This document shows, one piece after another, positions 37,625 to 50,745 of a stretch of DNA of 64,000 bases. The notes beneath the pieces are model-generated. The model did not search any database, was not told where the DNA came from, and saw only the letters and a list, made by a program, of their open reading frames with translations. Origin of the DNA: Escherichia phage outra. The stretch lies in sequence record MN850645.1. One strand, written 5' to 3'. A program made the translations under genes and the position numbers. The stretch's first letter is position 1, and each line of letters opens with the position of its first letter.

Positions 37625-37854
37625 CATCTTGTCGAGGGGGGCGAGGCACAACGACAATAAACAAAAGGAGGGCGCAATGCAGGACGGGCAAAGGTGAGGA
37701 TCTCCACAATCCACCGTCACAATAACATTACTTATAAAAGGTTGATAACGATGATCAAGAAAGAAAACAGCTTGACGGTTGGAACGATTAACGCTATCAT
37801 TCTAGCCGTTCCATTTTGGATTGTAGTAGCGGTTATTATCTTTTAAAAATATTC

Positions 37855-37912
37855 TTGACAACGTTTTTTAATCTGATAAGATGTATCACATAGGGCGGCA
37901 ATAGTGCCGCTC
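37855..37912 (+). promoter_or_regulatory. early promoter plus stem-loop cassette (TTGACA, TAAGAT, hairpin GGGCGGCAATAGTGCCGCTC)
   Basis: Module directly precedes the RBS and ATG of 37935..38207. Confidence 0.6.
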
Positions 37913-37934
37913 ATAACAGAAGAGAGAAATAATC

Positions 37935-38207
37935 ATGGCATCATATAGCGCATCAATGATCGTAGCTGGCATCACTGGTAAACCTATGCGCGGTGGCGGA
38001 TCTTTCGCTAACATCAATATTGATGGGCGTTTATCCCTGGATGCAGCGATCACCGTGGCACGGGAAACATTTAAAAAAGAATGTAATTTCAATAAACAAG
38101 ATTATCTCGGCTTCGTTATTGAAAAAACCGCGCGCTTTGTGGATTATAAAAGCCCGAAAATGATCGACACTACACTAAAAGCGCAAGATGTAGCGTTTTT
38201 GCTTTAA
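37935..38207 (+). CDS. hypothetical early protein
   Basis: 90 aa; promoter/stem-loop/RBS module upstream. Confidence 0.5.
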   Translation: MASYSASMIVAGITGKPMRGGGSFANINIDGRLSLDAAITVARETFKKECNFNKQDYLGFVIEKTARFVDYKSPKMIDTTLKAQDVAFLL

Positions 38208-38210
38208 GGC

Positions 38211-38271
38211 TTGACACTTAAAAATAATTTTGTAATATATACCACATAAGGCGGGGAAATGGTTTCCCGCC
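38211..38271 (+). promoter_or_regulatory. early promoter plus stem-loop cassette (TTGACA-17-TAATAT, hairpin GGCGGGGAAATGGTTTCCCGCC)
   Basis: Consensus-like spacing; hairpin abuts RBS. Confidence 0.65.
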
Positions 38272-38293
38272 AAATCAAAGAAAGGGTAATGCA

Positions 38294-38656
38294 ATGAGCA
38301 AGCAAATCAATACTATCATGTTAAACCTGGTATCTTTCCGCGACGACGTGAAAAATCTTCCACGTGATGCAGTGGATGCACGGATCGAAAGCTATCGCTC
38401 ACAGATCGCAACGCTACCGCTAAAACGTGATCAACATGCCGCTAATATGATGCTTAATGCTATGCTTAAAAAGATGATTCAATGTGATCTTACCCTGGCT
38501 TATGAATATGCTGGCGATCTCTTTGTAACATATAGCAAGCCCGTACCAGGTATGAGCACAACCGAAGAATTGCATGCCTTAAATCTGCGACAAGATGCAT
38601 GGGATAACATGCGCCGTGTTATGGTATGGGTAGAAAGCGGTAAAATTTACGAATAA
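38294..38656 (+). CDS. hypothetical early protein
   Basis: 120 aa. Confidence 0.5.
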   Translation: MSKQINTIMLNLVSFRDDVKNLPRDAVDARIESYRSQIATLPLKRDQHAANMMLNAMLKKMIQCDLTLAYEYAGDLFVTYSKPVPGMSTTEELHALNLRQDAWDNMRRVMVWVESGKIYE

Positions 38657-38734
38657 AAACGGTTAACATTGCACTAAAACCTGATAAGCTATCTTAAAGC
38701 GGGAACTATTCCCGCTTACATAGGATAAAACTTT

Positions 38735-38884
38735 ATGAAACAATATGTAATGAGTATTCACACCAAAAACGGCGCTACTGTTACAACTCCGGCACGGTTT
38801 GCACTTGTAAACCGTTGCAAGAGACTAAAACGAGAGTTAAAAAATAACCGTGCAACGGGCTGCTTTAAACGCTGGGGAGGATAA
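38735..38884 (+). CDS. hypothetical small basic protein
   Basis: 49 aa hand-translated; preceded by hairpin AAGCGGGAACTATTCCCGCTT. Confidence 0.3.
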   Translation: MKQYVMSIHTKNGATVTTPARFALVNRCKRLKRELKNNRATGCFKRWGG

Positions 38885-38886
38885 TC

Positions 38887-39159
38887 TTGTTTTTTCTAAA
38901 AGTTTTTGATAATGTGATCGCTTTTGAACATGCTACAACGTTCAACCTGGCGAGATACGCTATCAGGTTTAAAGATAATGTTTATCCCCGTGCTGGTGGC
39001 GGTTACACTATCTTTAATCATCGTAACGCTCAATTAACAGATATAACGAATCCAGATCCTGGAGTGTATCGCATAGGCTGGCTACCGTCAAAAGACGCGG
39101 CAAGCATGTTTAAGGTGTGTAAACTACTAACAGAAGAGGCGAACGAACATGGGGCGTGA
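38887..39159 (+). CDS. hypothetical protein (TTG start per ORF track)
   Basis: 90 aa; GGGGAGGA RBS 6 nt upstream. Confidence 0.4.
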   Translation: MFFLKVFDNVIAFEHATTFNLARYAIRFKDNVYPRAGGGYTIFNHRNAQLTDITNPDPGVYRIGWLPSKDAASMFKVCKLLTEEANEHGA

Positions 39160-39703
39160 ATATGTGATCCAGTCATGGGTAAAGCATGACGCTAATGATC
39201 CGCGCATAATACCAGATGACATGATCGATCACATGGTAGGGTACAGCGGGGAGCAGATAGGGAATCGAGCGGCAAAGAGCAACGGGCACACAAAGACGCG
39301 ATCCGTTCGCCCTGGTTGGCTGGCAAATGGTAACGCTGACATTGCAAGCGCCGCAGATCCAAGCGATGACGCTAAAAATAATCCCTTATATAGCATTGAT
39401 CCGGCTTTTAAGGTGTTAGAAGAGTATCCCGCTAAATTAGCCGCACTAGATAAGGCATACGAAGAAAAGCGCATGGCATGGACTGTATACAACACCGCTA
39501 AAATGGTGCTAGATGCAAAATTGATTAAAGCCCAGGAGAAGATCAATAAACTTGTTGCAGTAGCGCAAGAGGAAGACCAGGACGACCAGGAGGAAGAGGA
39601 AGAAATCATGCCTACCCTGGAAGAGGAAGAGATCCAGCCATACATGCCGACGGAAGAGGAAAAAAGACAAGCCCTAAAAAATTATGAAAATTGCATTGTG
39701 TAA
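39149..39703 (+). CDS. hypothetical protein with acidic D/E-rich C-terminus
   Basis: 184 aa. Confidence 0.45.
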   Translation: MGREYVIQSWVKHDANDPRIIPDDMIDHMVGYSGEQIGNRAAKSNGHTKTRSVRPGWLANGNADIASAADPSDDAKNNPLYSIDPAFKVLEEYPAKLAALDKAYEEKRMAWTVYNTAKMVLDAKLIKAQEKINKLVAVAQEEDQDDQEEEEEIMPTLEEEEIQPYMPTEEEKRQALKNYENCIV

Positions 39704-39784
39704 GGCTTGACATATGCAAATAAGCCCCGTAATATGTACCACATAAAGCGGGGCAACGCCCCATAAAGTGAAATAAAAAATCAC

Positions 39785-39812
39785 TTGACACCTGAAATCA
39801 GTAAGCTATAAT
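39785..39812 (+). promoter_or_regulatory. consensus sigma70 promoter (TTGACA-16-TATAAT), second of a tandem pair (first TTGACA near 39707)
   Basis: Read directly. Confidence 0.6.
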
Positions 39813-39849
39813 GCTTATATAGATTGAAACATTACTAAGGAATAAAAGC

Positions 39850-40029
39850 ATGGCTATTATTGCAAAAACTGAGATCGTAGGTTTAGATTCTATCATCCTG
39901 GCATATGAGGAAGCTGTAGAAATGTATGTGGTTTCCTATGGTGATTATATCCGTGAATATAAATCTATTGATCTAGCTTTTGAATGCTATATTCGCCAGG
40001 TCAATAAAGCATATGATGATTATCGTTAA
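39850..40029 (+). CDS. hypothetical small protein
   Basis: 59 aa hand-translated downstream of consensus promoter. Confidence 0.35.
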   Translation: MAIIAKTEIVGLDSIILAYEEAVEMYVVSYGDYIREYKSIDLAFECYIRQVNKAYDDYR

Positions 40030-40124
40030 AAGTTTTAGTCTTGTGCTATTGACAACGAACGATAGTACAAGCATAATAACTTTTATCGGGAATACTCCTA
40101 ACTAATCAAAAGAGATTAAAGACT

Positions 40125-40490
40125 ATGGCTAAAAATATCAATGTTTCTGCTTATGCTACCCTGGCTAACACTGCTAAAATTGAACTATCTAGCATTGAAG
40201 CGGTACATATTAGCGCCCGTCGCTGGTTTCAAAAGTCTTATGGTAACACTTATTTCTCTTTGATGGTTGACGTTGAGATCGGCGGTAAACTGATCGAAGT
40301 CGTTAACGTTCCGTTTCACTATGGCTACGGGGATCATTTTGATACCGTTGCCCTAGAAGAGTTTAGCAAGGTTATCAACCTGGAAGGTAAAGAGTTTTCA
40401 AATTATGCCTACCTTTCCCGTTTTTGCCGTGATAATGGGATCGCTGTATACAGTCATGCAAGCGATGTTAAACGTAAAAAAGATTTATAA
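40125..40490 (+). CDS. hypothetical early protein
   Basis: 121 aa; TTGACA promoter near 40049. Confidence 0.5.
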   Translation: MAKNINVSAYATLANTAKIELSSIEAVHISARRWFQKSYGNTYFSLMVDVEIGGKLIEVVNVPFHYGYGDHFDTVALEEFSKVINLEGKEFSNYAYLSRFCRDNGIAVYSHASDVKRKKDL

Positions 40491-40610
40491 AAAGCATTGA
40501 CAGCACGAATAAAAAGCGTAAAATGTTTCATATCAGGACGGGGAACGAAGTAACACCCCGTTAAGTAGCCCAGGAGTAAGGCACACGAAAAACTCCCCTG
40601 ATAAAATAGT

Positions 40611-40670
40611 TTGACAATGGTTTCTAATAACGTATAATACTTACATCGAGAGCGGGAACACTTCCCGCCT
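40611..40670 (+). promoter_or_regulatory. early promoter plus stem-loop cassette (TTGACA-16-TATAAT, hairpin GAGCGGGAACACTTCCCGCCTC); second TTGACA/TAAAAT promoter with hairpin at about 40497-40562
   Basis: Read directly. Confidence 0.6.
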
Positions 40671-40693
40671 CACTGAAAAAAGAGATTAACATC

Positions 40694-40933
40694 ATGGCTA
40701 AATCTAAAATGTTCTTAGGTCACAAAAACAAAACTCATTGGAATGTAAGCCTTTGGATCAACAACGATGAAGGTTTTTATAATCTTGCGCGTGAATTTAT
40801 CGCAGCTAACACCAATAAGAATGACGCAGCGCGTGATATGATGTTATTTCTTGAAAGTATGGATCAAGATAAAACGCCAGACGGTTACAAGTTCAGTAAA
40901 ACCGCGATCCGTGCCGCTATGGTTGGAATGTAA
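40694..40933 (+). CDS. hypothetical early protein
   Basis: 79 aa. Confidence 0.5.
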   Translation: MAKSKMFLGHKNKTHWNVSLWINNDEGFYNLAREFIAANTNKNDAARDMMLFLESMDQDKTPDGYKFSKTAIRAAMVGM

Positions 40934-41029
40934 AGGAGACATAAAAATGAAACATCGTTCGACCTATCTCACAAAACGTTTTAGCTTAGATCATAAATTG
41001 GGCTATTACGGAAGAAATAGAAAATAATT

Positions 41030-41090
41030 TGACAACGTTTTAAATTAGTGTAAGATATATCACATAGGGCGGGAAATGGTTTCCCGCCAA
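41030..41090 (+). promoter_or_regulatory. early promoter plus stem-loop cassette (hairpin GGGCGGGAAATGGTTTCCCGCC)
   Basis: TTGACA, TAAGAT, hairpin, AAAGAAAGG RBS; near-identical to module at 38211. Confidence 0.65.
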
Positions 41091-41110
41091 ATCAAAGAAA
41101 GGTTATCATT

Positions 41111-41338
41111 ATGGCTATCATTATTGTTCGCGTATCCGGTACGGTTGGAAGCTCCCAGGTAGTAGCAGTTATCACCGAGAAGAAAGGGGATGATCTTCAC
41201 TCTTCCTTGAATAGCTGGGCGGTAGCTAACTTCGGGCAATGGTCGAGCGTTGAGTACATCGAATCCTACCAGGTGCCAACGATTAGCCTAACCGATCTAA
41301 ATGTTGATCGCTTGTTGTGCCTGGATGGATTAAACTAA
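41111..41338 (+). CDS. hypothetical early protein
   Basis: 75 aa. Confidence 0.5.
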   Translation: MAIIIVRVSGTVGSSQVVAVITEKKGDDLHSSLNSWAVANFGQWSSVEYIESYQVPTISLTDLNVDRLLCLDGLN

Positions 41339-41346
41339 AAATAATC

Positions 41347-41405
41347 TTGACAAGATAACTAAAATCAGTAAAATGTAATGCATAGGGCGGCAATAGTGCC
41401 GCTCC
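41347..41405 (+). promoter_or_regulatory. early promoter plus stem-loop cassette (hairpin GGGCGGCAATAGTGCCGCTC)
   Basis: TTGACA, TAAAAT, hairpin. Confidence 0.6.
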
Positions 41406-41425
41406 TAGTGAGAGAGATTATCAAA

Positions 41426-41638
41426 ATGGCTAATATCCGCACACTGTTAAAAAATGCAAAACAAGTTTTATTTTCTGATCACGATCATTTTAATAAAGAT
41501 ATTACAGGCGTGAAGAATATCAAAGAGGTAAAAAGTGTTATGGGTATCTATTGCAATATGAAGCGAGTAGGCACATTTGGTGATAAAGTATTATATCAGG
41601 CAGGTGACTACAATTTTACTTTGACAATTATCAACTAA
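41426..41638 (+). CDS. hypothetical early protein
   Basis: Start at Met after module. Confidence 0.45.
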   Translation: MANIRTLLKNAKQVLFSDHDHFNKDITGVKNIKEVKSVMGIYCNMKRVGTFGDKVLYQAGDYNFTLTIIN

Positions 41639-41649
41639 GGGATCACAAA

Positions 41650-41808
41650 ATGAAAACTTGCCAATGTGGTAAAAAGTCTATCTCTGGTTTAAAACGTGGC
41701 GTTGCTCTTTGTCAATATCACTATAACGCTCAAACGTGGGGTAAGCAGTGGGCGGATCAGGTGGAAGAGGCAAAGAAAGAAAATATAAAAGTAGTTGCAA
41801 AGAAATAA
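41650..41808 (+). CDS. small Cys-containing protein
   Basis: 52 aa hand-translated (MKTCQCGKK...). Confidence 0.3.
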   Translation: MKTCQCGKKSISGLKRGVALCQYHYNAQTWGKQWADQVEEAKKENIKVVAKK

Positions 41809-41879
41809 AAATAGAGTAAACTGTATTCATCAAGGCGGTGGAATAGCTCACCGCCTAACAAAGAGAAGAGGAAAACATC

Positions 41880-42050
41880 ATGATCACTTTCGCTACCCGT
41901 GAAGCCGCTCGCAACGTTGCACGTAAAGTTAATGCCGCCAACCTGGGCGCTACGCTTAAAGCCCCGGTAAAAGATGAATCAGGTAAATGGATCTTTCCTG
42001 GTCTGCGTCACGCTGATAAGCTGGGAACATTAACGTTAAAAAATAAATAA
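41880..42050 (+). CDS. hypothetical small protein
   Basis: 56 aa hand-translated; preceded by hairpin GGCGGTGGAATAGCTCACCGCC. Confidence 0.3.
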   Translation: MITFATREAARNVARKVNAANLGATLKAPVKDESGKWIFPGLRHADKLGTLTLKNK

Positions 42051-42057
42051 TATCCGC

Positions 42058-42117
42058 TTGACAGTAGCATGGTTTATAAGTAAAGTAACAACAACGGCGG
42101 GAAATGGTTTCCCGCCA
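42058..42117 (+). promoter_or_regulatory. early promoter plus stem-loop cassette (hairpin GGCGGGAAATGGTTTCCCGCC)
   Basis: TTGACA plus hairpin abutting RBS. Confidence 0.55.
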
Positions 42118-42136
42118 TCAATAAAGAGATAAGATT

Positions 42137-42496
42137 ATGAAATCAGTAAAAGCAATCAAAACTTACATTGTATCGGCTATTTCTTTTGAAGGTACTACAA
42201 CCGAAAAAGAAAAAATCACCGAACTGATGCGCCGTTTTAATTCTGAATACTGGTATCCCGATAATCAAAAACGTTACAATTATAACGTGATCAAGGCGAT
42301 AGCCTCATGGTTACAAGGTTTACCGTCAGACATTAACATTGCCTTTGATTATAACGAGATTGATCATTTATTAATTGAATGGAAGTACATAAAAGAAACA
42401 AGCAAAGAAACAACCGTTACCCGTGAGCGGGAAAATTATTGGTTATATATTGCAAGCATGATCGTAATCCTGGCAAAACAGCATAACGTGGCGTAA
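42137..42496 (+). CDS. hypothetical early protein
   Basis: 119 aa. Confidence 0.5.
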   Translation: MKSVKAIKTYIVSAISFEGTTTEKEKITELMRRFNSEYWYPDNQKRYNYNVIKAIASWLQGLPSDINIAFDYNEIDHLLIEWKYIKETSKETTVTRERENYWLYIASMIVILAKQHNVA

Positions 42497-42511
42497 TTAA
42501 GAGGAAGAAAC

Positions 42512-42649
42512 ATGAACGCATCACAGCAGATCGAAAAATTCAACCGCAGCAAGGCGCGTAAAGATTGGAACGAAGAGATCACCAAAAAAGGCGACAAGCG
42601 GAACAAAACAAAAAGAGATCGCAGCACAAAAAGATACTGGAACGAATAA
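42512..42649 (+). CDS. small highly basic (K/R-rich) protein
   Basis: 45 aa hand-translated; GAGGAAG RBS; terminator follows. Confidence 0.3.
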   Translation: MNASQQIEKFNRSKARKDWNEEITKKGDKRNKTKRDRSTKRYWNE

Positions 42650-42650
42650 C

Positions 42651-42680
42651 AAAAAAGGGCGCAATAAGCGCCCTTTTAGC
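42651..42680 (+). terminator. Rho-independent terminator
   Basis: aagggcgcaataagcgccctttt. Confidence 0.7.
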
Positions 42681-42768
42681 TTATATAGGGGCTTGTTACC
42701 CATAGGCAATGGTAACGCCAGGGCAAGCCTATAAATCAACGTTAGACGGCTTTACAGGAGCTTTAAAA

Positions 42769-42951
42769 ATGAGATTAGAAGAAATAAGCAAGGCACTAGA
42801 CCAGGAGCAAAGGTTATGCGCCCGATATCGTGATCAATATGGCTTCATAACTAGCGGCGTGATCCTGGGGATGGAAGGCAATAAGATTTTTATTGACACG
42901 TTGAAAAACGTTGTATATAGTGACAATATAATCTCAATAAAACATATATGA
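42769..42951 (+). CDS. hypothetical protein
   Basis: Start at Met with CAGGAG RBS. Confidence 0.4.
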   Translation: MRLEEISKALDQEQRLCARYRDQYGFITSGVILGMEGNKIFIDTLKNVVYSDNIISIKHI

Positions 42952-42959
42952 GGCAAGAA

Positions 42960-43361
42960 ATGAAAAACTTATTGATCGCTGGTTTAATCTCTTTTGGCAT
43001 GGTTGGAACATCTAGCGCGGCGATATCCTCCACAGTAGCAGAATTAAGCGCCGTTGATGCAATGGAAAACGTCATGCTTATTAATAATGCGATCCCCGAT
43101 GAAATCATGGAGGATTCACACATGATCGCTTATGGTGCTGTTACACAACTAACGGCAAAAATAGATAAATCTATTGTTAATGGCTTAAATGAAGATGTAC
43201 CATGTGAAATTATTACCAGTGTGCTGACTACTCAAAATTTTACGCCGTGGTTAAAAAGTATTCAAAAAGTACACAGTACAGCCGCAGATCGTAGCAATGA
43301 AAAACTAGTGTCAGCACTTGCAACGTATACCCTAGCAAAATGCACTGAGATAAAAGATTGA
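42960..43361 (+). CDS. secreted protein (signal peptide)
   Basis: MKNLLIAGLISFGMVGTSSAAIS leader. Confidence 0.45.
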   Translation: MKNLLIAGLISFGMVGTSSAAISSTVAELSAVDAMENVMLINNAIPDEIMEDSHMIAYGAVTQLTAKIDKSIVNGLNEDVPCEIITSVLTTQNFTPWLKSIQKVHSTAADRSNEKLVSALATYTLAKCTEIKD

Positions 43362-43408
43362 CAACATAGAAAGCACGTTATAAGATACACACAACAAAGG
43401 AGAACTAC

Positions 43409-43711
43409 ATGAACGGCATAGCTAAAACGTTTTTTCTTTTTTCTGGTGTAAATGATCCATCAATAAAAGTCGATAGTGTAAAAGAAAAAAATACTATCAC
43501 CGCTAAATTGTTTCAAGATGAAACAAATAACGTGCTAATCATTAATCTTAAAGAAGTAACGAAAGGTTATTATACTATTGCTTACCATGCGATCTATCAT
43601 GCTGGTACTGGTGAGGAAGTGCAAACAAGCAACAACGAAAGCGCGGCGCTACCTGGTGATCTGGTGCTGGGCGTTATCAGTTTAATTGTCAATGATTTTT
43701 TTAAGGAGTAA
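43409..43711 (+). CDS. hypothetical protein
   Basis: 100 aa. Confidence 0.45.
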   Translation: MNGIAKTFFLFSGVNDPSIKVDSVKEKNTITAKLFQDETNNVLIINLKEVTKGYYTIAYHAIYHAGTGEEVQTSNNESAALPGDLVLGVISLIVNDFFKE

Positions 43712-44040
43712 AACCATGCCCTATTTACATTTATTTTTCGGTATCTTATTAACAGGATCTTTTTTCTTCTGTATGCTTGTTTCTATTGTAAACCACGTTT
43801 TAAGACATTAAGGAAACAGCATGAAAATTATTCCCGTACAATATAGCGTAATAAATCCAGCATATGAGGAAGGAAGGAAAACAAGCATGGCTTTATGTTG
43901 TATTGCTACTATAGCCATGTTGTTATACATTGTGTTTTAATAGGTTTTATAGTTGTACGCTTTAAAGGCTTGACAATTTTTTGTTATGCTTTAAACTATA
44001 TCTTGAAAACGGCAAAGGCCGCAAACAAAAGGGTAAAATT

Positions 44041-44364
44041 ATGAAATCTGTGATCGGTGTTTATTTGGATAACTCTGATTTTTTCTATCATCGCGCGCGT
44101 TTACTTGATGCTATTGAAATGATAGAATCAGGCTTTAAAGAGTATCGCCTTGCACATGATGACCTGGAAGCATTACAGGGCAATAGTGTTTTTACATTGC
44201 AAGCGAAAGCACTATGCAAAAGCCGGATCGAGATTGCAAGTAAAAAGATAGAGCGCGGCATGTCCTGGTTGCGCACCGCAGAAATCAACATGGGGCAATG
44301 GTACGGCGAAAACTTAGAAAATAAACATGCTTTTGTCAATGTAGAAAATATTGAAGATTATTGA
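44041..44364 (+). CDS. hypothetical early protein
   Basis: TTGACA near 43970; start at Met after short hairpin. Confidence 0.45.
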   Translation: MKSVIGVYLDNSDFFYHRARLLDAIEMIESGFKEYRLAHDDLEALQGNSVFTLQAKALCKSRIEIASKKIERGMSWLRTAEINMGQWYGENLENKHAFVNVENIEDY

Positions 44365-44427
44365 TTGACAGCACACCGAACGGGGAGTATATTGTATCTC
44401 ATAGAGCGGGGAAATGGTTTCCCCGCC
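44365..44427 (+). promoter_or_regulatory. early promoter plus stem-loop cassette (TTGACA-17-TATATT, hairpin GAGCGGGGAAATGGTTTCCCCGCC)
   Basis: Read directly. Confidence 0.6.
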
Positions 44428-44446
44428 TTAAAAGAAGAGATAAGCT

Positions 44447-44731
44447 ATGAAGATCACAAAAGCACTTTCCAACTATGCAGCACGTCGCGGCTTATGTTTA
44501 ACCGTTGAAAACCTGGGGAAAGAAGATTTTTTGTGCTTTTGGGAGCTTGAGAATGATAATGAGTGGATCTTCTCTTATTCTATCTGCGAAGATCAAAACG
44601 GTTGTTTATTAGCCTGGCGCGGTAATATCTATCTACCGGAAGAAATCAAAGAAGAATTACCAGGCACGATCATGACTGAGAAACAGCTTAAGGAAGTGAT
44701 CAATTTTGTAGGGCAAAACATTAAAAAATAA
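44447..44731 (+). CDS. hypothetical early protein
   Basis: 94 aa. Confidence 0.5.
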   Translation: MKITKALSNYAARRGLCLTVENLGKEDFLCFWELENDNEWIFSYSICEDQNGCLLAWRGNIYLPEEIKEELPGTIMTEKQLKEVINFVGQNIKK

Positions 44732-44732
44732 T

Positions 44733-44790
44733 TTGACACTAGGCAAACAACGTAGTAAAGTTTATCACATAGGGCGGCAATAGTGCCGCT
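44733..44790 (+). promoter_or_regulatory. early promoter plus stem-loop cassette (hairpin GGGCGGCAATAGTGCCGCTC)
   Basis: The stretch from the hairpin to the RBS is almost identical to the module at 37855. Confidence 0.6.
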
Positions 44791-44812
44791 CATAACAGAA
44801 GAGAAACAAATC

Positions 44813-44983
44813 ATGATCCCAACTATGTTTTATGTATCGCGCAAAGGTCACAATATTTTTTGGTCTGAAGATTTAAATGAAGCCATGACGTTTGCCCGTG
44901 ATCGTGTCGCTATCGGTGGCGTTAACATTACCGTAACCGATGAAAATGGCATTGAATACTATAACGGCGACGATGAAGAGTAA
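44813..44983 (+). CDS. hypothetical small protein
   Basis: Start at Met after module. Confidence 0.4.
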   Translation: MIPTMFYVSRKGHNIFWSEDLNEAMTFARDRVAIGGVNITVTDENGIEYYNGDDEE

Positions 44984-45030
44984 TTAATGAGGCGGGGGAA
45001 TATTCCCCGCCGTCAATAAAGAGGTAAATC

Positions 45031-45300
45031 ATGAAAATATCATTGGACGTTGCAATCAAGGCCATCGAATCCGGTTACACCCTGGTAAAAGATGATAAGG
45101 CTAAAATAGTGCATCATGTTAACAAGGAAACAGGCGAAAGCATGATCACATATAAAGCCGCCTACTTTCTCCAATCAGTAGCAGATCCGCGCGTACAACG
45201 CCAGGTTACGGCGGCTATTGCTAAAAAAGTATGTGCTTTACAGGGTACAAGTTTTAACGAGATCGCCCCGTGTTTTGACTGGTCGAGCTTGAAAAAATAG
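45031..45300 (+). CDS. hypothetical protein
   Basis: 89 aa; preceded by hairpin GGCGGGGGAATATTCCCCGCC. Confidence 0.45.
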   Translation: MKISLDVAIKAIESGYTLVKDDKAKIVHHVNKETGESMITYKAAYFLQSVADPRVQRQVTAAIAKKVCALQGTSFNEIAPCFDWSSLKK

Positions 45301-45496
45301 TTTGACAATATGCGGTTATCTGGTAAAGTGTACGACATAGGGCGGGGCAATAAGGCAACGCCCACTAATGAGGGTAAAATCATGTTAGAGAAAATTTTCA
45401 CGGTTGTAGTAGTGGGCCTGGCGTTATCGGTTGGAGTGATTGCAACTATGGCTAACATGATCCTATCTTCCCACGGTATTGGATAAGGTGAATCAA

Positions 45497-45712
45497 ATGA
45501 TCACGAATAAGACAGGTAAAACAGAATTTTTACGCGGCTTGCAAATTGGTAAACCTGAAATATGGCATTGCACTAAATCCGCGCATAATGAGATGAAAGA
45601 CTTTACCGCCACGTTACAACGTGTTAAAATATCTATTACGCAGAAAAAAGCCTTATTAGTAGTAGAAAACGAGATACCGCAAACCATTATTATTGTCGAG
45701 CGTACAGCATGA
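45497..45712 (+). CDS. hypothetical protein
   Basis: Start at first ATG; a 34-aa hydrophobic micro-ORF lies upstream (about 45382-45486) after a TTGACA promoter at 45302. Confidence 0.4.
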   Translation: MITNKTGKTEFLRGLQIGKPEIWHCTKSAHNEMKDFTATLQRVKISITQKKALLVVENEIPQTIIIVERTA

Positions 45713-46095
45713 AAACTGAAATCATTATTGAAATCATCAACGGTTATAAAGAAGCCTTTATTTTTGCTGAATCAGCCAGGGATCATGAAGGTAATTTTGT
45801 AAACGACATGACTGACTATGATTTTTCAGATCAAGCCCATCAGCGGATCATTCATGACGTAGCGGCTTATTGTGATGCCAATGATGCTGCTATCTCTGAG
45901 GCAATGAGCGACGGCGCAACAGCAAACCAGATCGGGAATGACTTACATTTCACCCGTAACGGTCACGGCGTAGGCTTTTGGGATCGCCCTGAAATATACA
46001 CTACTAACACCGCCAACCGCCTAACAAATGCAGCTAAATTAATGCCATCGGTGCATGCTTACATTGGTGAAGATAATTTGATTTATATTGAATAA
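45709..46095 (+). CDS. hypothetical protein
   Basis: 128 aa; ATGA overlap with upstream gene. Confidence 0.45.
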   Translation: MKTEIIIEIINGYKEAFIFAESARDHEGNFVNDMTDYDFSDQAHQRIIHDVAAYCDANDAAISEAMSDGATANQIGNDLHFTRNGHGVGFWDRPEIYTTNTANRLTNAAKLMPSVHAYIGEDNLIYIE

Positions 46096-46101
46096 AAAGT
46101 A

Positions 46102-46160
46102 TTGACACCGATCCCCGATATGTTATTATTTACCACGTAGGCGGGAAATGGTTTCCCGCC
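46102..46160 (+). promoter_or_regulatory. early promoter plus stem-loop cassette (hairpin GGCGGGAAATGGTTTCCCGCC)
   Basis: TTGACA, TATTAT-like -10, hairpin. Confidence 0.6.
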
Positions 46161-46184
46161 AGGTAATCAAAAAAGGTAAATACT

Positions 46185-46574
46185 ATGCGCAACCTGGTTT
46201 CTGTTTCTAACGTTGAAAAATTTCAATCCTTGCAGGGTATCGTTAACAACGTAGCGCCTTTTCTAGTCAATGGCTTGATTGCAAAGATGAAAAATAAACA
46301 TCATGCAGCATGGTCTGCTTACTGCTTTGATAATGATGAAAAAGCGGCTGAAATGATGTTAAATATGCTGTTAGATAGTGTAGAATCATCTTTACCGGAA
46401 AACATCGCAGAAGAGATCACCTATCGTTATAATATGGCGATCACCTATCAGGAGGTTGCGCAATTCAATATGATGGACGATGACGAACAACAGGATCAGG
46501 AAATGTTTTGGGAATATGCAGATCGTCAATCGGCTTTTGATGAAAAGTTAGCGATGTATTATAACGAATATTAA
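46185..46574 (+). CDS. hypothetical acidic protein
   Basis: 129 aa. Confidence 0.5.
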   Translation: MRNLVSVSNVEKFQSLQGIVNNVAPFLVNGLIAKMKNKHHAAWSAYCFDNDEKAAEMMLNMLLDSVESSLPENIAEEITYRYNMAITYQEVAQFNMMDDDEQQDQEMFWEYADRQSAFDEKLAMYYNEY

Positions 46575-46587
46575 TACACGGTAAAAG

Positions 46588-46618
46588 AAAGGGGCGCACT
46601 AAGCGCCCTTTTTTGTAT
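46588..46618 (+). terminator. Rho-independent terminator
   Basis: ggggcgcactaagcgcccctttttt. Confidence 0.7.
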
Positions 46619-46959
46619 TCTTTTTCACGATGGAAGTAACACGTAAAGAATAAACGTAAGAGGTGGCGTAAAACAGCCTAAAACCGATTATAACCGCTTA
46701 AACAAGGTAGTAATGACTAATCACCTTGCCAGGATGAAAAAGCTGTTATAAAGCTATCTAGAGCGTTTAAAGCACATAGGAAATAATTTGCTTTTTATCT
46801 TGCCTTTTATCCTGCTTTTGATTATTATTATGGAACGGGCGGCACCTGGGGACAGGGGAAGATAATCACCGGAAGATCCCGCTATATATTAATAGCTAAT
46901 ACCTATCAAACAACAAAACATCAAAGGAATAAACTATCAAATCTTTACAATCCTACCTA

Positions 46960-47019
46960 TTGACACAGGATCACCCTTATACTAATATGTATCCCGTAGG
47001 GCGGGAAATGGTTTCCCGC
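46960..47019 (+). promoter_or_regulatory. early promoter plus stem-loop cassette (hairpin GGGCGGGAAATGGTTTCCCGC)
   Basis: TTGACA, TATACT/TAATAT, hairpin. Confidence 0.6.
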
Positions 47020-47038
47020 TTGATATAGGAATCATACC

Positions 47039-47272
47039 ATGATCGAACAAATTAAAAGCACTACACCAAATGTTAACGGCAATGTTTCACACTTTATCGG
47101 TGATAATGAAAGGGGCACACCATACGCCGCCGTAACCGTGCAACCTAACGGGGATTATTGGTTTACCGTGTACGGATCATACTCTTTCGGACGCCCGGCA
47201 CATGATAAGATCTTGCAAGCGGTTAAACCTGCGGGGAAGAATATCACAGTAGAAAAATTCTATGAAAAATAA
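47039..47272 (+). CDS. hypothetical protein
   Basis: 77 aa. Confidence 0.5.
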   Translation: MIEQIKSTTPNVNGNVSHFIGDNERGTPYAAVTVQPNGDYWFTVYGSYSFGRPAHDKILQAVKPAGKNITVEKFYEK

Positions 47273-47347
47273 CTTGCTTTATAGCCTCTGTTAATTTATA
47301 GTTATCGTGTAGGGCAAACAATTTTAAACGGTAAACGAGGAATCACC

Positions 47348-47731
47348 ATGAGCAATATCATCAACCTGGCAGCGACTGTAAACGGTAAAGATTTTAACGG
47401 CGCTGTAGATCATGATCCTATGTGGTGCTTATCAGTGTTTAAAGGTGACTTGGTTGAAGTTAGAACAACCGAAGGTTATAGCGACGATTATAAATGCGAG
47501 ATTCATTTACACAACTGGTACACGGGTAAAACTTATGCGCTGAATCATGCGTTTATCGGCAAGGTTGAATATAGGGAAATGATCGACGAAGAAACGGGGC
47601 AAGATTTTAGCGATTATGTTTATATTCGTTCCGAGACATTAGCCGAACGTTTGATCGAGAAAATGAAAGCAAAAAATAAAATTAATTTAGCTCATTGGAT
47701 TGATATAACAAACGATCCTGCTTATCAGTAA
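47348..47731 (+). CDS. hypothetical protein
   Basis: 127 aa; followed by terminator. Confidence 0.5.
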   Translation: MSNIINLAATVNGKDFNGAVDHDPMWCLSVFKGDLVEVRTTEGYSDDYKCEIHLHNWYTGKTYALNHAFIGKVEYREMIDEETGQDFSDYVYIRSETLAERLIEKMKAKNKINLAHWIDITNDPAYQ

Positions 47732-47744
47732 ATAACATTTCAAA

Positions 47745-47773
47745 CAAGGGCGCTTATTGCGCCCTTTCTTTTT
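47745..47773 (+). terminator. Rho-independent terminator
   Basis: aagggcgcttattgcgcccttt plus T-tract. Confidence 0.7.
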
Positions 47774-47977
47774 ACCTAAATAAAGATGATAGCTTTTACC
47801 TATCAAAAACGTTCACCGAAAAAAGTGAATAGATCGCGGTATCGAGCTAATCAGGGAGCAGATGAACAACCATACCATGAAGATCATAAGGCGCTTACAA
47901 CGGCTTTTAGACCGCTTATTTTTAATTTCTTCATGCAACTATCTGGCAAAAACAGCCTTTTTCTTGTCTTTCCTCTT

Positions 47978-48052
47978 AAATGATAATCATTCTTATTTAT
48001 AGCTGATTATTTATGCAATAAACTGCATAATGCAATAATGATAATCATTCTT
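47978..48052. promoter_or_regulatory. two Fur-box-like dyads (AATGATAATCATTCTT), 55 bp apart
   Basis: Read directly. Confidence 0.4.
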
Positions 48053-48906
48053 AACTTATGACCATCTAACCTATAAAATAATAAGCTATCTAACTAAATT
48101 AAAACTAATTATCTCACCTTTATTTATAACTTACTGTTACTATCTCATTGATAACCTTATATTAAACAACAATAACTAATATAAATCATTACTAAGCTAA
48201 ATATAATCTATCTAACCTTTAAAACTATAACTATAATCTATCGAATTGTTGCACAAAGTAACTATTAAATTGTTAGTAACATTGCTAAATAATTAATATC
48301 CTATCTATTTATGATCTAATCTTTACCTTCCTATTTATTACCTAAATAACCATTTCATATAGTAATTATTTCATACAATAACTATAACAAGAAACATAAT
48401 TCGCAAGCGTATCATTAGCAGCCTATGCCGGACACATAGGCGGCTAATAATAACGCAACTACACACCCCACATAATAACCATCACCGATAGTTATTATTT
48501 GTGCTTATGTAGCTTGCAACAATTGCAAGCGCAACAATATACTAAGGTATATTGTATCCCTTACATTGTTGCGGTGCGTTATTATTAGCTAATGTTTAGA
48601 ACATTGGCTATAATATAAGCTGCATATAATAAGCTATTCAATAATAAACATCGTGAATAATGACATTGATGATCATAATGCGCCACCCTCCAGGGGGCGC
48701 TATGTGAACACAAAGAAATCTTTCTTATCAAGAAAATATTATCACTATTGCGCAAAATTATTTACATCTGAATAGATGATTTTTCATACTATTATTGTTA
48801 TTTGTTGAGCATAGTTATAGCCTATTTGTTGAGCCTACTTTCTTAAAAGCGCAATAAATCAGAATTATCTTGATTTTTAGTGCGTTTTATAGTATAGAAA
48901 ATATGC

Positions 48907-48923
48907 AAATGATAATCATTATC
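48907..48923. promoter_or_regulatory. near-perfect Fur-box-like site (AAATGATAATCATTATC) just downstream of a TTGATT-N17-TATAGA promoter-like element
   Basis: 15-nt identity with positions 5-19 of the E. coli Fur consensus GATAATGATAATCATTATC. Confidence 0.45.
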
Positions 48924-49480
48924 AGCTATCTTCCACGGGTAGCACTATTTCACGCCAGATCATTTCATTTGGCAAGGTGTATATAGATGTTTAGACTTGC
49001 CAAGTTATTGATTTACTTAGAATTTATCTATTTTGTTGTGAGTAGTACCTTTCTTGCTTAGAAAATAATCAAAAGTCTTATAAGTCATTGAATGATAATA
49101 CAAATGATAATTATTCTCATTGATATTTGAGGGGGACGGTCGGCAGAAATCGGGGGGTGCTGAAAATCGCGTTAAGCACCTCTCGCAAGCGAGCAGTATT
49201 TTGCGGCAAGTTATTGATATTATTGGCTTTACGCTTATGAAAAGGGGGTGTGTCGAAATAAAGCGGGTATACCGGAAAATTTTTGTGGCATAGATATTTA
49301 TTTGTCTATATTATGTACAAAGGGGTGTGTTAAAAATATTAGGTATATATAGAATAATTGATAGGGAAATCCTATACTAATCCCTCCATTAATGATGTTT
49401 CTATGTTACTGTTCTTGTAATAGATGAAAAGACGCTGTATGATGTGTGGCATGAAACGTAAACTTATAAAGGAGTCTGAT

Positions 49481-49858
49481 ATGTGTGTTCCTCTTAGCAG
49501 TCCACTGCTGTTAGAATTTTATAAAGCATGGATGCAAGATCATTCCTCAATGCATCGTGAGAATGTTGGTTTGTGTATTTGCCTTATGGATTATCTGGCA
49601 ACCACTATGTCAAAGAAAAAACCTACGCGAGAAGATATAGAACATTTCAAGATGGTTCGTAGTAAAACGCTGGAAGAGATGAAATTGCAATTCACGTGTG
49701 CTGGGCTATCCTCCTTCCTGCCCTTTAATGATGATCTTCTGTGTTATGAAGATGAAGGTAAGAAACATTCTTGCCATACTAACCCAGAGAGATTGCAGTG
49801 GGTGAAAGATCGTATTGCCGATTCGTGTTTGGTGTTAGGGGGTGACAATGAAAAGTAA
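49481..49858 (+). CDS. hypothetical protein, paralog family member 1
   Basis: LLLEFYKAW...GLCICLMDYL...QFTCAGL...LPFN...CHTN..RLQWVKDRI; AAAGGAG RBS. Confidence 0.5.
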   Translation: MCVPLSSPLLLEFYKAWMQDHSSMHRENVGLCICLMDYLATTMSKKKPTREDIEHFKMVRSKTLEEMKLQFTCAGLSSFLPFNDDLLCYEDEGKKHSCHTNPERLQWVKDRIADSCLVLGGDNEK

Positions 49859-50216
49859 TATTCCGTTGAGTAGTGCAGCTTTAATACGATTCTATAAAGC
49901 ATGGATTGCCAACCATCCGGCAATGAATCGCACAACGAGTGGCTTGTGTGGTTGTCTGGTAGATTATGTAGATGATTTTGTTGGTGAGGTAACTAGAGAA
50001 GAAGATAAAAGATGGCGTGATCGTTTGTTGGATAGTTTGAAATACGAAATGAGGAAACAATTTACATGTGCAGGACTGGACTACAATCTTCCGTTCAATG
50101 CAGATTGCATGGATTACCTTTCAGAATGTATAGACTTGGCGTGTCATACCAACACGTTACGTCTTCAATGGGTGAAAAACAGAATCGAAGATGCAAATAA
50201 TGCTTGCATTGAATAG
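49848..50216 (+). CDS. hypothetical protein, paralog family member 2
   Basis: Same motif set as 49481..49858; tandem duplicate. Confidence 0.5.
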   Translation: MKSNIPLSSAALIRFYKAWIANHPAMNRTTSGLCGCLVDYVDDFVGEVTREEDKRWRDRLLDSLKYEMRKQFTCAGLDYNLPFNADCMDYLSECIDLACHTNTLRLQWVKNRIEDANNACIE

Positions 50217-50286
50217 AAATGCCTGTACACTGTGTTCCATAAGATATGCAATATCGCGCATAACAAACTACTAATGAGAGGTGTAA

Positions 50287-50745
50287 ATGAAAACTGTATC
50301 TTTGTATCTTGCTAACACGGAGCGTGTACATAATCTTGTAAAAGAATGTGGTGTGAGTGTTCAATTTAACACAGGAAAGCCTTCTGTGGTGATAGGCAGT
50401 GAGATGTGTGTTATTGATTTCATCAATGAATATTTTCGTGGGAAGCCTATTGCTCGTCACTTCATCCGAGAAATGCGAGATGTACAACAGGATTATGAAT
50501 TCTACCCAGAAATTTGTGAACGCTATGAAACTATTCTTAGTTCTGTAGAAGATCCAGATACCAGTGAAACAGGTGCTTCCCACTTACTGTGGATGTTGAA
50601 TGAAATTCAGGATGGGTGTAATGGTATGTCTGAAACCAAACGCCATCGTTGGCTAGGTTATATTCAGGGTGTTATGGTTATGAAAAACCTTATTACAGTG
50701 AATGACGAACGTAATGCTACACGCCCCGTCTTTAATGGAGCATAA
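50287..50745 (+). CDS. hypothetical protein
   Basis: 152 aa. Confidence 0.45.
   Translation: MKTVSLYLANTERVHNLVKECGVSVQFNTGKPSVVIGSEMCVIDFINEYFRGKPIARHFIREMRDVQQDYEFYPEICERYETILSSVEDPDTSETGASHLLWMLNEIQDGCNGMSETKRHRWLGYIQGVMVMKNLITVNDERNATRPVFNGA

What the first reader, a model, noticed from the sequence alone, without database searches (positions are those of the whole stretch)
47950..49420. 1.4-kb ORF-free, AT-rich region with palindromes and hairpins: candidate origin or ncRNA locus
No ORF of 60 aa or more on either strand across about 1.45 kb in an otherwise saturated genome. It contains palindromes (CTTGCAAcaaTTGCAAG near 48520; CGCAACAAT...ATTGTTGCG near 48530-48575), duplicated TATTTGTTGAGC blocks (48792, 48820), a promoter-like TTGATT-N17-TATAGA directly upstream of the Fur-like site at 48907, and a downstream stem TTGGCAAG/CTTGCCAA (about 48975-49010) that could terminate a short transcript of roughly 80 nt.
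Basis: seen in the sequence. Interest (0 to 1): 0.55.

Follow-up and report, generated by a model that had tools for sequence, protein, structure and literature searches.

The report
Genome-end repeat region of phi92-like phage
This gene-free stretch is where the linear DNA of a phi92-like E. coli phage starts and ends (a 343-bp terminal repeat plus flanking control DNA, already annotated in phage phi92); it also holds an undescribed conserved folded element and binding sites for the host iron regulator Fur, like the one beside the cut site of phage lambda.

Summary

The window is a phi92-like Justusliebigvirus. The 343-bp direct terminal repeat (DTR) annotated in phi92 RefSeq maps to 48832-49174 at 96.8% identity, so the gap is the genome-end / concatemer-junction region.

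Both repeat boundaries fall exactly at GTTN^AGC and are conserved in Phapecoctavirus. Independent records end within 1 nt of them.

Its -10 has no conserved T, its stem does not co-vary, and there is no U-tract. An origin is neither shown nor excluded; there are no DnaA boxes.

Two features appear undescribed:
- A ~186-nt multi-hairpin element (48408-48593) has compensatory changes across genera and a covariance-model hit in rV5.
- Four Fur-box palindromes are present, two inside the DTR. One is a perfect TGATAATCATTATCA, identical to the gel-shift-verified Fur site upstream of nohA. That site is the lambdoid cos region, 6 nt from cosQ.

Core identity: already known. Fur boxes at packaging termini of unrelated coliphages is the interesting lead.

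The parts
47746..47766 (+). Intrinsic terminator of the upstream gene (phi92 gp248 homologue, 47348..47731). It marks the left edge of the non-coding gap.
   Evidence: 8-bp stem, 6 GC pairs, T-run. The stem is conserved with loop changes in Phapecoctavirus.
47770..47949 (.). Conserved non-coding block A (68-85% identity to Phapecoctavirus over 47760-47879, falling to 20-59% by 47949). Role unknown.
   Evidence: A 1-nt indel and the lack of any PHROG hit argue against coding. No conserved secondary structure on either strand.
47981..47995 (.). Fur-box-like 7-1-7 palindrome, site 1 (TGATAATCATTCTTA, 12/14). It is positionally conserved in Phapecoctavirus as TGATAACCATTATCA.
48039..48053 (.). Fur-box-like palindrome, site 2 (TGATAATCATTCTTA, 12/14). 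Specific to Justusliebigvirus.
47950..48404 (.). AT-rich spacer, G-depleted on the + strand (GC 22.6%, G 5.5%), with short degenerate repeats. Positions 48245-48380 are absent from Phapecoctavirus.
   Evidence: Composition is conserved but sequence is not.
48408..48593 (.). Conserved multi-hairpin element. P1: 48421-27/48435-41, loop CCGGACA. P2 (long-range): 48443-57/48575-89. P3: 48459-62/48509-12. P4: 48475-83/48487-95. P5: 48513-19/48523-29. P6: 48530-33/48570-73. The functional strand and the molecule (RNA or ssDNA) are undetermined.
   Evidence: Alignment A3 and RNAalifold. 98.5% of cells are paired, against 20-46% when partners are slid. 8 pairs change on both sides, against 0-1 in the slid controls. 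z = -6.5 to -8.5. Covariance model R1 hits rV5 at 34.7 bits, E about 1e-6, full length.
48596..48831 (.). Pre-repeat region with the duplicated TATTTGTTGAGC blocks (48799-48810, 48823-48834). The second block contains the left cut site.
48832..49174 (.). Direct terminal repeat (single copy here, as in a concatemer or circularised assembly). Left boundary: TATTTGTTG|AGCC. Right boundary: CGCGTTA|AGCA.
   Evidence: 96.8% identical to phi92 DTR-L and DTR-R. The BME3 record (342-bp DTR by PhageTerm) ends at 49173, VEcB at 48831, and Mt1B1_P17 at ...CGCGTT. GTTN^AGC is in exact register at both boundaries.
48870..48898 (+). Promoter-like TTGATT-N17-TATAGA. The -35-like hexamer and the spacing are conserved across genera, but the -10-like hexamer is not a sigma-70 -10.
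   Evidence: It falls below the 9/12 threshold and is not among the hits.
48910..48924 (.). Fur box, site 3: perfect 7-1-7 TGATAATCATTATCA. The extended site 48905-48923 matches 17/19 of the E. coli consensus. It starts 78 nt inside the left boundary.
   Evidence: The 19-mer is identical to the chuA/chuT intergenic site. The core is identical to the nohA/lambda site gel-shifted by Fur.
49105..49119 (.). Fur box, site 4: TGATAATTATTCTCA (13/14). It ends 55 nt before the right boundary. In some Phapecoctavirus the extended site matches 17/19 of the consensus.
49175..49423 (+). Leader between the repeat and the first left-end gene. It holds a cross-genus conserved block at about 49316-49379 (GGGGTGTGTTAAAAATATTAGGTATATATAGAATAATTGATAGGGAAA).
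   Evidence: No strong sigma-70 match.

Best explanation
The ORF-free stretch is the terminal region of a phage whose virion DNA is linear with short exact direct terminal repeats.

In replicating or concatemeric DNA, and in this assembly, the 343-bp repeat (48832-49174) is present once, between the right-end unique DNA (up to 48831) and the left-end unique DNA (from 49175). During packaging the terminase complex cuts at the two repeat boundaries, both of which read GTTN^AGC. The repeat is duplicated so that each virion DNA carries it at both ends.

The surrounding ~1.3 kb is non-coding because it is occupied by cis-acting DNA:
(i) the cut sites;
(ii) a conserved ~186-nt multi-hairpin element about 240 bp outside the repeat on the right-end side, most likely part of the packaging or end-replication signal;
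(iii) an AT-rich, G-poor spacer;
(iv) four Fur-box palindromes, two inside the repeat, that most likely bind host Fur;
(v) a conserved leader in front of the first left-end genes.

Shown: homology to an annotated DTR; boundary conservation; structural covariation; identity of the palindrome to a verified Fur site.

Inferred: the cutting chemistry, the roles of the hairpin element and of Fur, and which end enters the cell first.
For: Identity of the phage and the repeat:
- The window is 94-96% identical to Justusliebigvirus genomes.
- phi92 RefSeq annotates DTR-L at 1-343 and DTR-R at 148270-148612. Both map to 48832-49174 at 96.8%.
- The BME3 paper reports a 342-bp DTR and names PhageTerm as its packaging-analysis tool. 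The BME3 record ends at window 49173.
- The VEcB record ends at 48831. The Phapecoctavirus Mt1B1_P17 record ends at ...CGCGTT, 1 nt from the phi92 end.
- Published statements: all Stephanstirmvirinae end in DTRs. rV5 has an unexplained ORF-free 2.6 kb. In rV5-like LL12 a 459-bp terminal redundancy lies in that non-coding region.

Boundaries:
- Both boundaries are conserved across genera, and GTTN^AGC is in exact register at both.

Synteny:
- A ~1.5-kb ORF-free gap sits at the same place in four Phapecoctavirus-like genomes.

Hairpin element:
- 8 of 46 pairs carry compensatory changes in a structure-blind MAFFT alignment, against 0-1 in the slid controls.
- It is homologous and in the same relative position in rV5 and LL12, ending about 205 nt before the LL12 DTR.

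Fur boxes:
- Enrichment is 12 hits against 0.97 expected.
- They are positionally conserved where the flanks diverge.
- The identical core was gel-shifted by E. coli Fur at nohA.
Against: - There are no sequencing reads or virion-DNA data for this particular phage. The ends are placed by homology only.
- Some related GenBank records may simply have been re-opened to match phi92, so they are not all independent determinations.
- The GTTN^AGC motif is not present at the LL12 (rV5-like) boundaries, so it is not a universal cut signal.
- Nothing here shows what the hairpin element or the palindromes do. A second array of the same palindrome at 36843-36945 is about 12 kb from the end, so the palindromes are not purely a terminus feature.
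- No convincing promoter for the left-end genes was found. The transcriptional part of the model is therefore empty.
Confidence: 0.85

Rival explanations
1. Replication origin. The AT-rich block acts as an unwinding element, and the hairpin element and repeats act as initiator or primase sites. Replication starting here would also help duplicate the terminal repeat.
For: - Low GC and strong strand asymmetry at 47950-48404.
- A highly stable, conserved hairpin cluster.
- rV5 has about 10 GT(A/G)AACAGT iteron-like repeats between its hairpin element and its repeat.
- From my own knowledge, not tested here: T7 has a secondary origin close to its right end that helps packaging of junction plasmids.
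Against: - There are no DnaA boxes in the gap.
- There is no multi-copy iteron family in this window's gap other than the Fur-like palindromes.
- The AT-rich block is not conserved in sequence, and 136 bp of it are missing in Phapecoctavirus.
- GC-skew changes in this window follow gene orientation only; the rV5 authors reached the same conclusion.
- No initiator gene is adjacent.
Confidence: 0.2
2. The 48408-48593 hairpin cluster is a non-coding RNA gene, or a structured 3' UTR of the upstream operon, rather than a DNA signal.
For: - Compensatory base-pair changes are the classic signature of a structured RNA.
- As minus-strand RNA the fold is -83 kcal/mol, z = -8.5.
- Four of the five independent non-Watson-Crick events are G.U on the minus strand.
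- A minus-strand promoter-like site lies just to its right at 48641-48612, matching 9/12.
Against: - No conserved promoter or terminator exists on either strand across genera (manual inspection).
- There is no Rfam match.
- The strand preference is not significant (4 events against 1).
- The element keeps a fixed position relative to the terminal repeat in three genera, including rV5, where the flanking gene order differs. That fits a DNA terminus signal better.
Confidence: 0.25
3. One reading: a Fur-controlled promoter (TTGATT-N17-TATAGA) drives a ~80-nt sRNA that ends at the TTGGCAAG/CTTGCCAA stem.
For: - The TTGATT hexamer, its 17-nt spacing and the Fur box 11-12 nt downstream are all conserved across genera.
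Against: - The -10-like hexamer is TATAGA / TAAGAA / TAATAA, without the essential T at -7.
- The site scores below threshold in both promoter scans.
- RNAalifold finds no consensus structure here on either strand, and the 5' arm of the stem is absent in Phapecoctavirus.
- phi92 itself has TTGACAAG, which breaks a pair.
- No U-tract follows the stem.
Confidence: 0.05
4. The palindromes are operators for a phage-encoded dimeric repressor, or sites for the terminase small subunit, and have nothing to do with host Fur.
For: - The phage consensus tolerates G at position 4 (TGAGAAT), and sites occur in arrays.
- Several small 'putative transcription factor' genes lie downstream.
- The sites are close to the cut sites.
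Against: - The same palindrome, including the same variants (TGATAACCATTATCA, TGATAATTATTCTC-), is conserved in unrelated phage lineages: next to cosQ in lambda, phi80, 21 and an Stx1a phage, and in the T5 iss region.
- The identical core is a verified Fur site, and the 19-mer is identical to the chu locus Fur box.
- Lambda Nu1 binds the unrelated R sites described in the N15 packaging paper.
Confidence: 0.2

Closest known systems
Direct terminal repeats of phage phi92 (RefSeq NC_023693, features PHI92_DTR-L / DTR-R)
   Same: The sequence is homologous (96.8% over 343 bp), with the same flanking genes (gp248 homologue upstream, early small genes downstream) and the same boundaries.
   Different: Nothing essential differs. 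The window's record is simply opened elsewhere, so the repeat appears once and internally. The phi92 annotation says nothing about the hairpin element or the Fur boxes.
T7-type concatemer junction (short exact terminal repeat with flanking pac signals)
   Same: It has a short non-permuted repeat of a few hundred bp, specific cuts at both repeat boundaries, and non-coding flanks with inverted repeats on the right-end side. This comparison rests on my own knowledge of T7 and was not tested here.
   Different: There is no sequence similarity and no phage RNA polymerase promoters or pause site. The virus is a myovirus of about 148 kb. Both cut sites share GTTN^AGC in direct orientation, which a simple staggered-nick model does not predict.
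Lambda cos, left arm (cosQ / 'R4 region')
   Same: A Fur-box palindrome lies just upstream of the termination cut. In lambda it is TGATAATCATTATCA at 48452-48466, 6 nt before cosQ and 36 nt before the end. It is conserved in phi80, 21 and an Stx1a phage while the upstream DNA diverges. Here site 4 ends 55 nt before the right boundary.
   Different: Lambda makes 12-nt cohesive ends, not repeats. Its terminase and R sites are unrelated. No role for this palindrome in lambda packaging turned up in the searched literature.
T5 left-terminal-repeat untranslated 'repeat region 3' / injection stop signal
   Same: It is a large conserved untranslated, repeat- and palindrome-rich region tied to a terminal repeat. 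It holds an array of the same AAATGAGAATCATT(ATCATT) palindromes at 9540-9725 in AY692264. The last copy ends 36 nt before the annotated LTR end / major nick. The region is described as DRD repeats with no assigned function.
   Different: T5 has a ~10-kb repeat, DnaA boxes (none here) and two-step injection. Davison and Wang give the LTR as 10,139 bp, so the array may be next to the 7.9% nick rather than the repeat boundary.
E. coli Fur box (GATAATGATAATCATTATC; 7-1-7 TGATAATnATTATCA)
   Same: Site 3 matches 14/14 of the 7-1-7 motif and 17/19 of the 19-mer. Its core is identical to the gel-shifted nohA site, and its 19-mer is identical to the chuA/chuT site.
   Different: The site is not at a recognisable promoter of an iron gene. 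It lies in a virulent phage's terminal repeat. Binding here is untested.

Membership tests
Short direct terminal repeat (DTR) genome terminus | Sequence homologous to a terminal repeat determined in a close relative | tested here: met
   96.8% identity over all 343 bp of phi92 DTR-L and DTR-R. The end of the BME3 342-bp DTR coincides with it.
Short direct terminal repeat (DTR) genome terminus | Defined, conserved repeat boundaries (cut sites) | tested here: met
   The left boundary ...TGTTG|AGC and the right boundary ...CGCGTT(A)|AGC are conserved in Justusliebigvirus and Phapecoctavirus. GTTN^AGC is in register at both. The Mt1B1_P17 and VEcB records end there.
Short direct terminal repeat (DTR) genome terminus | The repeat is physically present at both ends of virion DNA (doubled read coverage, fixed read starts) | not testable with these tools
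   No reads or virion DNA are available for this phage. Only one copy is in the window, as expected for a collapsed assembly.
Replication origin (DnaA/iteron type) | Clustered DnaA boxes or initiator iterons next to an AT-rich unwinding element | tested here: not met
   An AT-rich block is present, but there is no TTATCCACA-like box in 47770-49423 and no iteron family besides the Fur-like palindromes.
Replication origin (DnaA/iteron type) | Replication initiates here | not testable with these tools
   Needs marker-frequency or 2D-gel data. The GC skew is confounded by transcription direction.
   The -10 lacks T(-7) in all genera. There is no consensus structure, and the stem is absent in Phapecoctavirus. 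No U-tract follows. No Rfam hit.
Structured nucleic-acid element (RNA or ssDNA), 48408-48593 | Base pairs maintained by compensatory substitutions beyond the controls | tested here: met
   98.5% of cells are paired. 8 pairs change on both sides, against 0-1 when partners are slid. The covariation score is 0.137, against 0.049 in shuffles. The rV5 hit is E about 1e-6 with the stems replaced (A4 is model-fitted and contains one antisense row).
Structured nucleic-acid element (RNA or ssDNA), 48408-48593 | Membership in a described RNA family | tested here: not met
   No Rfam 15 match at the gathering threshold or at E<=5.
Fur box (E. coli ferric uptake regulator operator) | Match to the 19-bp consensus / 7-1-7 inverted repeat | tested here: met
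   48905-48923 matches 17/19 and 48910-48924 matches 14/14. The other sites match 12-13/14. The consensus string is confirmed in the literature.
Fur box (E. coli ferric uptake regulator operator) | Fur protein binds the sequence | tested here: inconclusive
   The identical 15-bp core (the nohA -233 site, equal to lambda 48452-48466) shifts with 150 nM Fur and was selected in vivo. The phage fragment itself has not been tested.
Fur box (E. coli ferric uptake regulator operator) | Overlaps a promoter and confers iron-responsive repression | tested here: inconclusive
   Site 3 lies 11 nt after a promoter-like element whose -10 is poor. There are no expression data.

The most novel reading that the evidence does not exclude
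Host Fur is recruited to the DNA-packaging termini of several unrelated E. coli phages.

Fur-box palindromes, with the same sequence variants, are conserved in four settings:
- inside the short terminal repeat of phi92-, phAPEC8- and (more weakly) rV5-like myoviruses, 29-55 nt before the right-end cut;
- 6 nt upstream of cosQ in lambda, phi80, 21 and Stx1a phages;
- next to the 7.9% nick / injection-stop region of T5.

If this is real, Fur-Fe bound just ahead of the cut could act as a roadblock or positioning factor for the translocating terminase. Alternatively it could cap or mark the entering DNA end, or tie packaging or early expression to the host's iron state. The array at 36.8 kb, and arrays on hundreds of replicating genomes, could also titrate Fur and de-repress iron uptake.

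Separately, the conserved 186-nt hairpin cluster would be a new class of terminus-associated structured element shared by Stephanstirmvirinae and Vequintavirinae.
Probability: 0.3. Interest if true: 0.75.

Novelty: already known. Interest (0 to 1): 0.42.

Why it matters
The practical value is correct annotation. In dozens of Justusliebigvirus and Phapecoctavirus records this gap is either empty or filled with spurious small 'hypothetical proteins'. It should instead be marked as the terminal repeat and packaging region. Genomes should be opened at 48832-equivalent positions.

The scientific value lies in two leads.

First, the ~186-nt hairpin element offers a defined, co-varying candidate for the still unknown pac or end-replication signal of rV5/phi92-type therapeutic phages. 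That matters for engineering these phages and for transduction safety.

Second, experimentally validated Fur sites sit beside terminase cut sites in lambda-like, T5-like and phi92-like phages. This apparently unremarked link would connect host iron status, or at least a host DNA-binding protein, to phage genome ends. It is directly testable with fur mutants, gel shifts and cos/DTR point mutants.

Tried and rejected
- Rfam, at gathering threshold and at E<=5, and tRNA/tmRNA scans found nothing meaningful.
- The five longest small ORFs in the gap have no PHROG match. The minus-strand 41-aa hydrophobic ORF (47813..47938) looked partly conserved. However, its N-terminus and stop are not conserved, and a 1-nt indel separates the genera. 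I treat it as non-coding.
- Sigma-70 scans find no site of 10/12 or better anywhere in 47000-50500, although about 25 near-perfect promoters lie in 37.5-47 kb. I could not assign a promoter to the left-end operon.
- There are no DnaA boxes in the gap.
- RNAalifold on 47775-48030 and on the repeat itself gave no supported structure on either strand.
- Pattern scans of IMG/VR and metagenomes for the P1 hairpin returned only 3 and 4 loci, all close relatives. Covariation therefore rests on about 3 clades plus rV5.
- The strand of the hairpin element cannot be decided: 4 G.U events against 1.
- I first took the T5 palindrome array to abut the repeat boundary. AY692264 annotates the LTR end at 9749, but Davison/Wang give 10,139 bp, so I claim only proximity to the major nick / iss.
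- I suspected that 37057-37183 is an sRNA. It folds no better than shuffles (z = -0.85) and has no Rfam hit. It is left unexplained.
- The Schwarzer 2012 and Wieczorek & Feiss 2001 papers are not held in the library.
Full report
**What is there**

Window 47770-49423 lies between two + strand genes. Upstream is the phi92 gp248 homologue (47348..47731), which ends in a clean intrinsic terminator at 47746-47766. Downstream is a gene starting at 49424.

Inside the gap no ORF exceeds 57 aa, apart from a 65-aa ORF at its left edge. None of the small ORFs matches a PHROG family. Carefully annotated relatives leave the gap empty.

GC falls to 0.293 for 48001-49000, against about 0.37 for the window as a whole. 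Block 47950-48404 has 22.6% GC and only 5.5% G on the + strand.

**What phage this is, and what the gap is**

The region is 94-96% identical to about 50 Justusliebigvirus (phi92-like, Stephanstirmvirinae) genomes.

In one annotated relative the upstream gene is labelled phi92 gp248, which is the last phi92 gene. The downstream genes are labelled phi92 gp002 onwards. The phi92 record is therefore opened inside this gap.

phi92 RefSeq annotates 343-bp direct terminal repeats at 1-343 and 148270-148612. Both copies map to window 48832-49174 at 96.8% identity.

Other evidence agrees:
- The BME3 paper reports a 342-bp repeat and names PhageTerm as its packaging-analysis tool. The BME3 record ends at window 49173.
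- The VEcB record ends at 48831.
- The Phapecoctavirus Mt1B1_P17 record ends at ...CGCGTT, one base from the phi92 end.
- A 2025 paper states that Stephanstirmvirinae genomes end in direct terminal repeats.
- The rV5 paper noted an unexplained 2.6-kb ORF-free stretch. In rV5-like LL12, PhageTerm places a 459-bp terminal redundancy in that non-coding region.

The gap is therefore the genome-end / concatemer-junction region of a phage that packages DNA with short direct terminal repeats. It is already recorded for phi92.

**Anatomy from comparison with another genus**

Four Phapecoctavirus-like genomes have a syntenic ~1.5-kb ORF-free gap. Alignments and a conservation profile show islands that are better conserved than the flanking gene.

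*(a) Both repeat boundaries.* They read ...TGTTG|AGC... and ...TCGCGTT(A)|AGCA.... In the window GTTNAGC occurs only three times in 47000-50000. Two occurrences are exactly in register with the two boundaries. The third is 24 nt upstream, in the duplicated TATTTGTTGAGC block. The motif is not found at the LL12 boundaries.

*(b) A block right after the terminator (47770-47949).* It is conserved in sequence but has no supported structure.

*(c) The hairpin element (48408-48593).*

*(d) Two palindromes inside the repeat.*

*(e) A block at about 49316-49379,* ahead of the first gene.

The AT-rich middle (48100-48400) is conserved only in composition. Positions 48245-48380 are absent from Phapecoctavirus.

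**The hairpin element**

- a hairpin with an invariant CCGGACA loop;
- a perfect 15-bp long-range stem (48443-57 / 48575-89);
- three further hairpins enclosed by that stem.

Folding statistics:
- z = -7.7 as DNA.
- z = -6.5 as + strand RNA.
- z = -8.5 as - strand RNA.

I aligned 16 distinct sequences with MAFFT, so the alignment is blind to structure. The results are:
- 98.5% of pair cells are standard pairs, against 20-46% when partners are slid by 1-3 columns.
- 8 of 46 pairs change on both sides, against 0-1 in the slid controls.
- One of these is a within-genus A-U to U-A swap in phage arall.

A covariance model built from this alignment finds a full-length match in rV5 (34.7 bits, rough E about 1e-6). 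The match lies exactly where rV5 has an 18-bp perfect long-range inverted repeat enclosing an AACCATC...GATAGTT hairpin. The stems are largely replaced but remain paired.

In LL12 the element ends about 205 nt before the repeat. Here it ends 242 nt before the repeat. In both cases it lies on the gp248-like side.

I conclude that selection acts on intrastrand pairing. The fixed position relative to the repeat favours a DNA-level terminus signal for packaging or end replication. An RNA is not excluded. The strand is undecided, with four G.U events on the minus strand against one on the plus strand. Rfam has no match.

**The palindromes are Fur boxes**

AATGATAATYATT with up to 1 mismatch occurs 12 times in the window, against 0.97 expected by chance. 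All occurrences fall in this gap or in a second non-coding gap at 36843-36931.

Site 3 (48910-48924) is a perfect 7-1-7 TGATAATCATTATCA. It also matches 17/19 of the E. coli Fur consensus. Two sites lie inside the repeat. One starts 78 nt after the left cut and the other ends 55 nt before the right cut. They are among the best conserved bases there.

A BLAST of site 3 against 5,426 E. coli genomes gave two informative matches:
- An exact 19-mer in the chuA/chuT intergenic region of the haem-uptake chu locus. That this locus is Fur-regulated is from my own knowledge.
- A 24-nt match upstream of nohA in the Qin prophage.

That second site is the lambdoid cos region. Phage lambda carries the same TGATAATCATTATCA at 48452-48466. 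This is 6 nt upstream of cosQ and 36 nt from the right cohesive end.

Chen et al. 2007 list the nohA -233 site as a 22.3-bit Fur site. It was selected in vivo and shifted by 150 nM Fur. The paper never mentions phage, lambda or cos.

Across lambda, phi80, 21 and an Stx1a phage, similarity begins at this palindrome and runs to the end. The upstream DNA is unrelated. The variants seen (TGATAACCATTATCA, TGATAATTATTCTC-) are the same as in the myoviruses.

T5-like phages carry arrays of the motif in the untranslated injection-stop region. In T5 st0 the last copy ends 36 nt before the annotated repeat end / major nick. Davison describes these as repeats of unknown role and does not mention Fur. He also gives a longer LTR, so I claim only proximity to the nick.

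Sharing across unrelated lineages argues for a host factor rather than a phage protein. Fur binding to the identical core is experimentally shown. Binding and function in this phage are inferred. I found no paper linking Fur to cosQ or to phage termini.

**What is not supported**

- The -10 hexamer lacks T(-7) in every genus.
- The stem is not conserved.
- There is no U-tract.

No sigma-70 site of 10/12 or better exists in 47000-50500. By contrast, 37.5-47 kb carries about 25 near-consensus promoters. The promoter of the left-end operon therefore remains unidentified.

There are no DnaA boxes, and the GC skew is uninformative. An origin is neither shown nor excluded.

**Verdict**

The core identity, a terminal repeat and packaging region, is already known for phi92. 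My confidence in it is 0.85.

The co-varying hairpin element and the Fur boxes at packaging termini are, as far as the searched literature shows, undescribed. They are worth a bench test.

Noticed in passing
window 36404-37090: A second ORF-free, AT-rich gap (GC 0.31). It has three ~62-68-bp tandem repeats (about 36590-36830), followed by an array of 5-6 Fur-box-like palindromes (36843-36945). The array lies 12.3 kb (8.3% of a ~148-kb genome) from the right genome end. This recalls the position of the T5 injection-stop region (7.9%).
   Followed up: partly
window 37057-37183: A GC-rich non-coding block 3' of the minus-strand gene 37217-37483 (phrog_19316). It is conserved at 83-84% in over 200 phage records of many genera (Klebsiella, Proteus Mydo, Cronobacter CR8, Pectobacterium, Raoultella). 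It is not unusually structured (z = -0.85) and has no Rfam or tRNA hit. Its function is unexplained.
   Followed up: partly
window 37500-47000 (+ strand): About 25 near-consensus sigma-70 promoters, most with a perfect TTGACA, roughly one per small gene. None lies in 47000-50500, and few lie in the tightly packed operon from 49424. The right-end 12 kb looks like a host-RNA-polymerase 'immediate early' block.
   Followed up: no
L027 (lambda 48452-48466); L029 (phi80), L030 (phage 21), L031 (Stx1a phage), L024 (K-12 Qin prophage, nohA -233): A Fur-box palindrome is conserved immediately upstream of cosQ in divergent lambdoid phages. The K-12 copy is a gel-shift-verified Fur site, but the paper that verified it did not note that it is the cos region.
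   Followed up: partly
L023 (T5 st0 9540-9725), L021 (Gostya9), L022 (EC122): T5-like phages carry arrays of the same AAATGAGAATCATT palindrome in the untranslated injection-stop region. The arrays lie beside DnaA boxes and 36 nt before the annotated LTR end / major nick.
   Followed up: partly
window 49424-49858 and 49842-50216: The first two left-end genes are tandem paralogues. They share FYKAW, GLC-CL-DY, QFTCAGL, LPFN, CHTN and RLQWVK-RI. Their function is unknown.
   Followed up: no
window 47950-48404: There is extreme G depletion on the + strand (5.5% G, 17% C), and the composition is conserved in Phapecoctavirus. If the block is transcribed rightwards it would resemble a Rho-utilisation site that stops read-through before the packaging signals.
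   Followed up: no
L011 (rV5) 2960-3200, read on the minus strand: About 10 copies of GT(A/G)AACAGT lie between the rV5 hairpin element and its predicted terminal repeat. Only two related copies (CGTGAATAATGAC, TGTGAACAC) are present at the equivalent place in this window (48652-48712).
   Followed up: no
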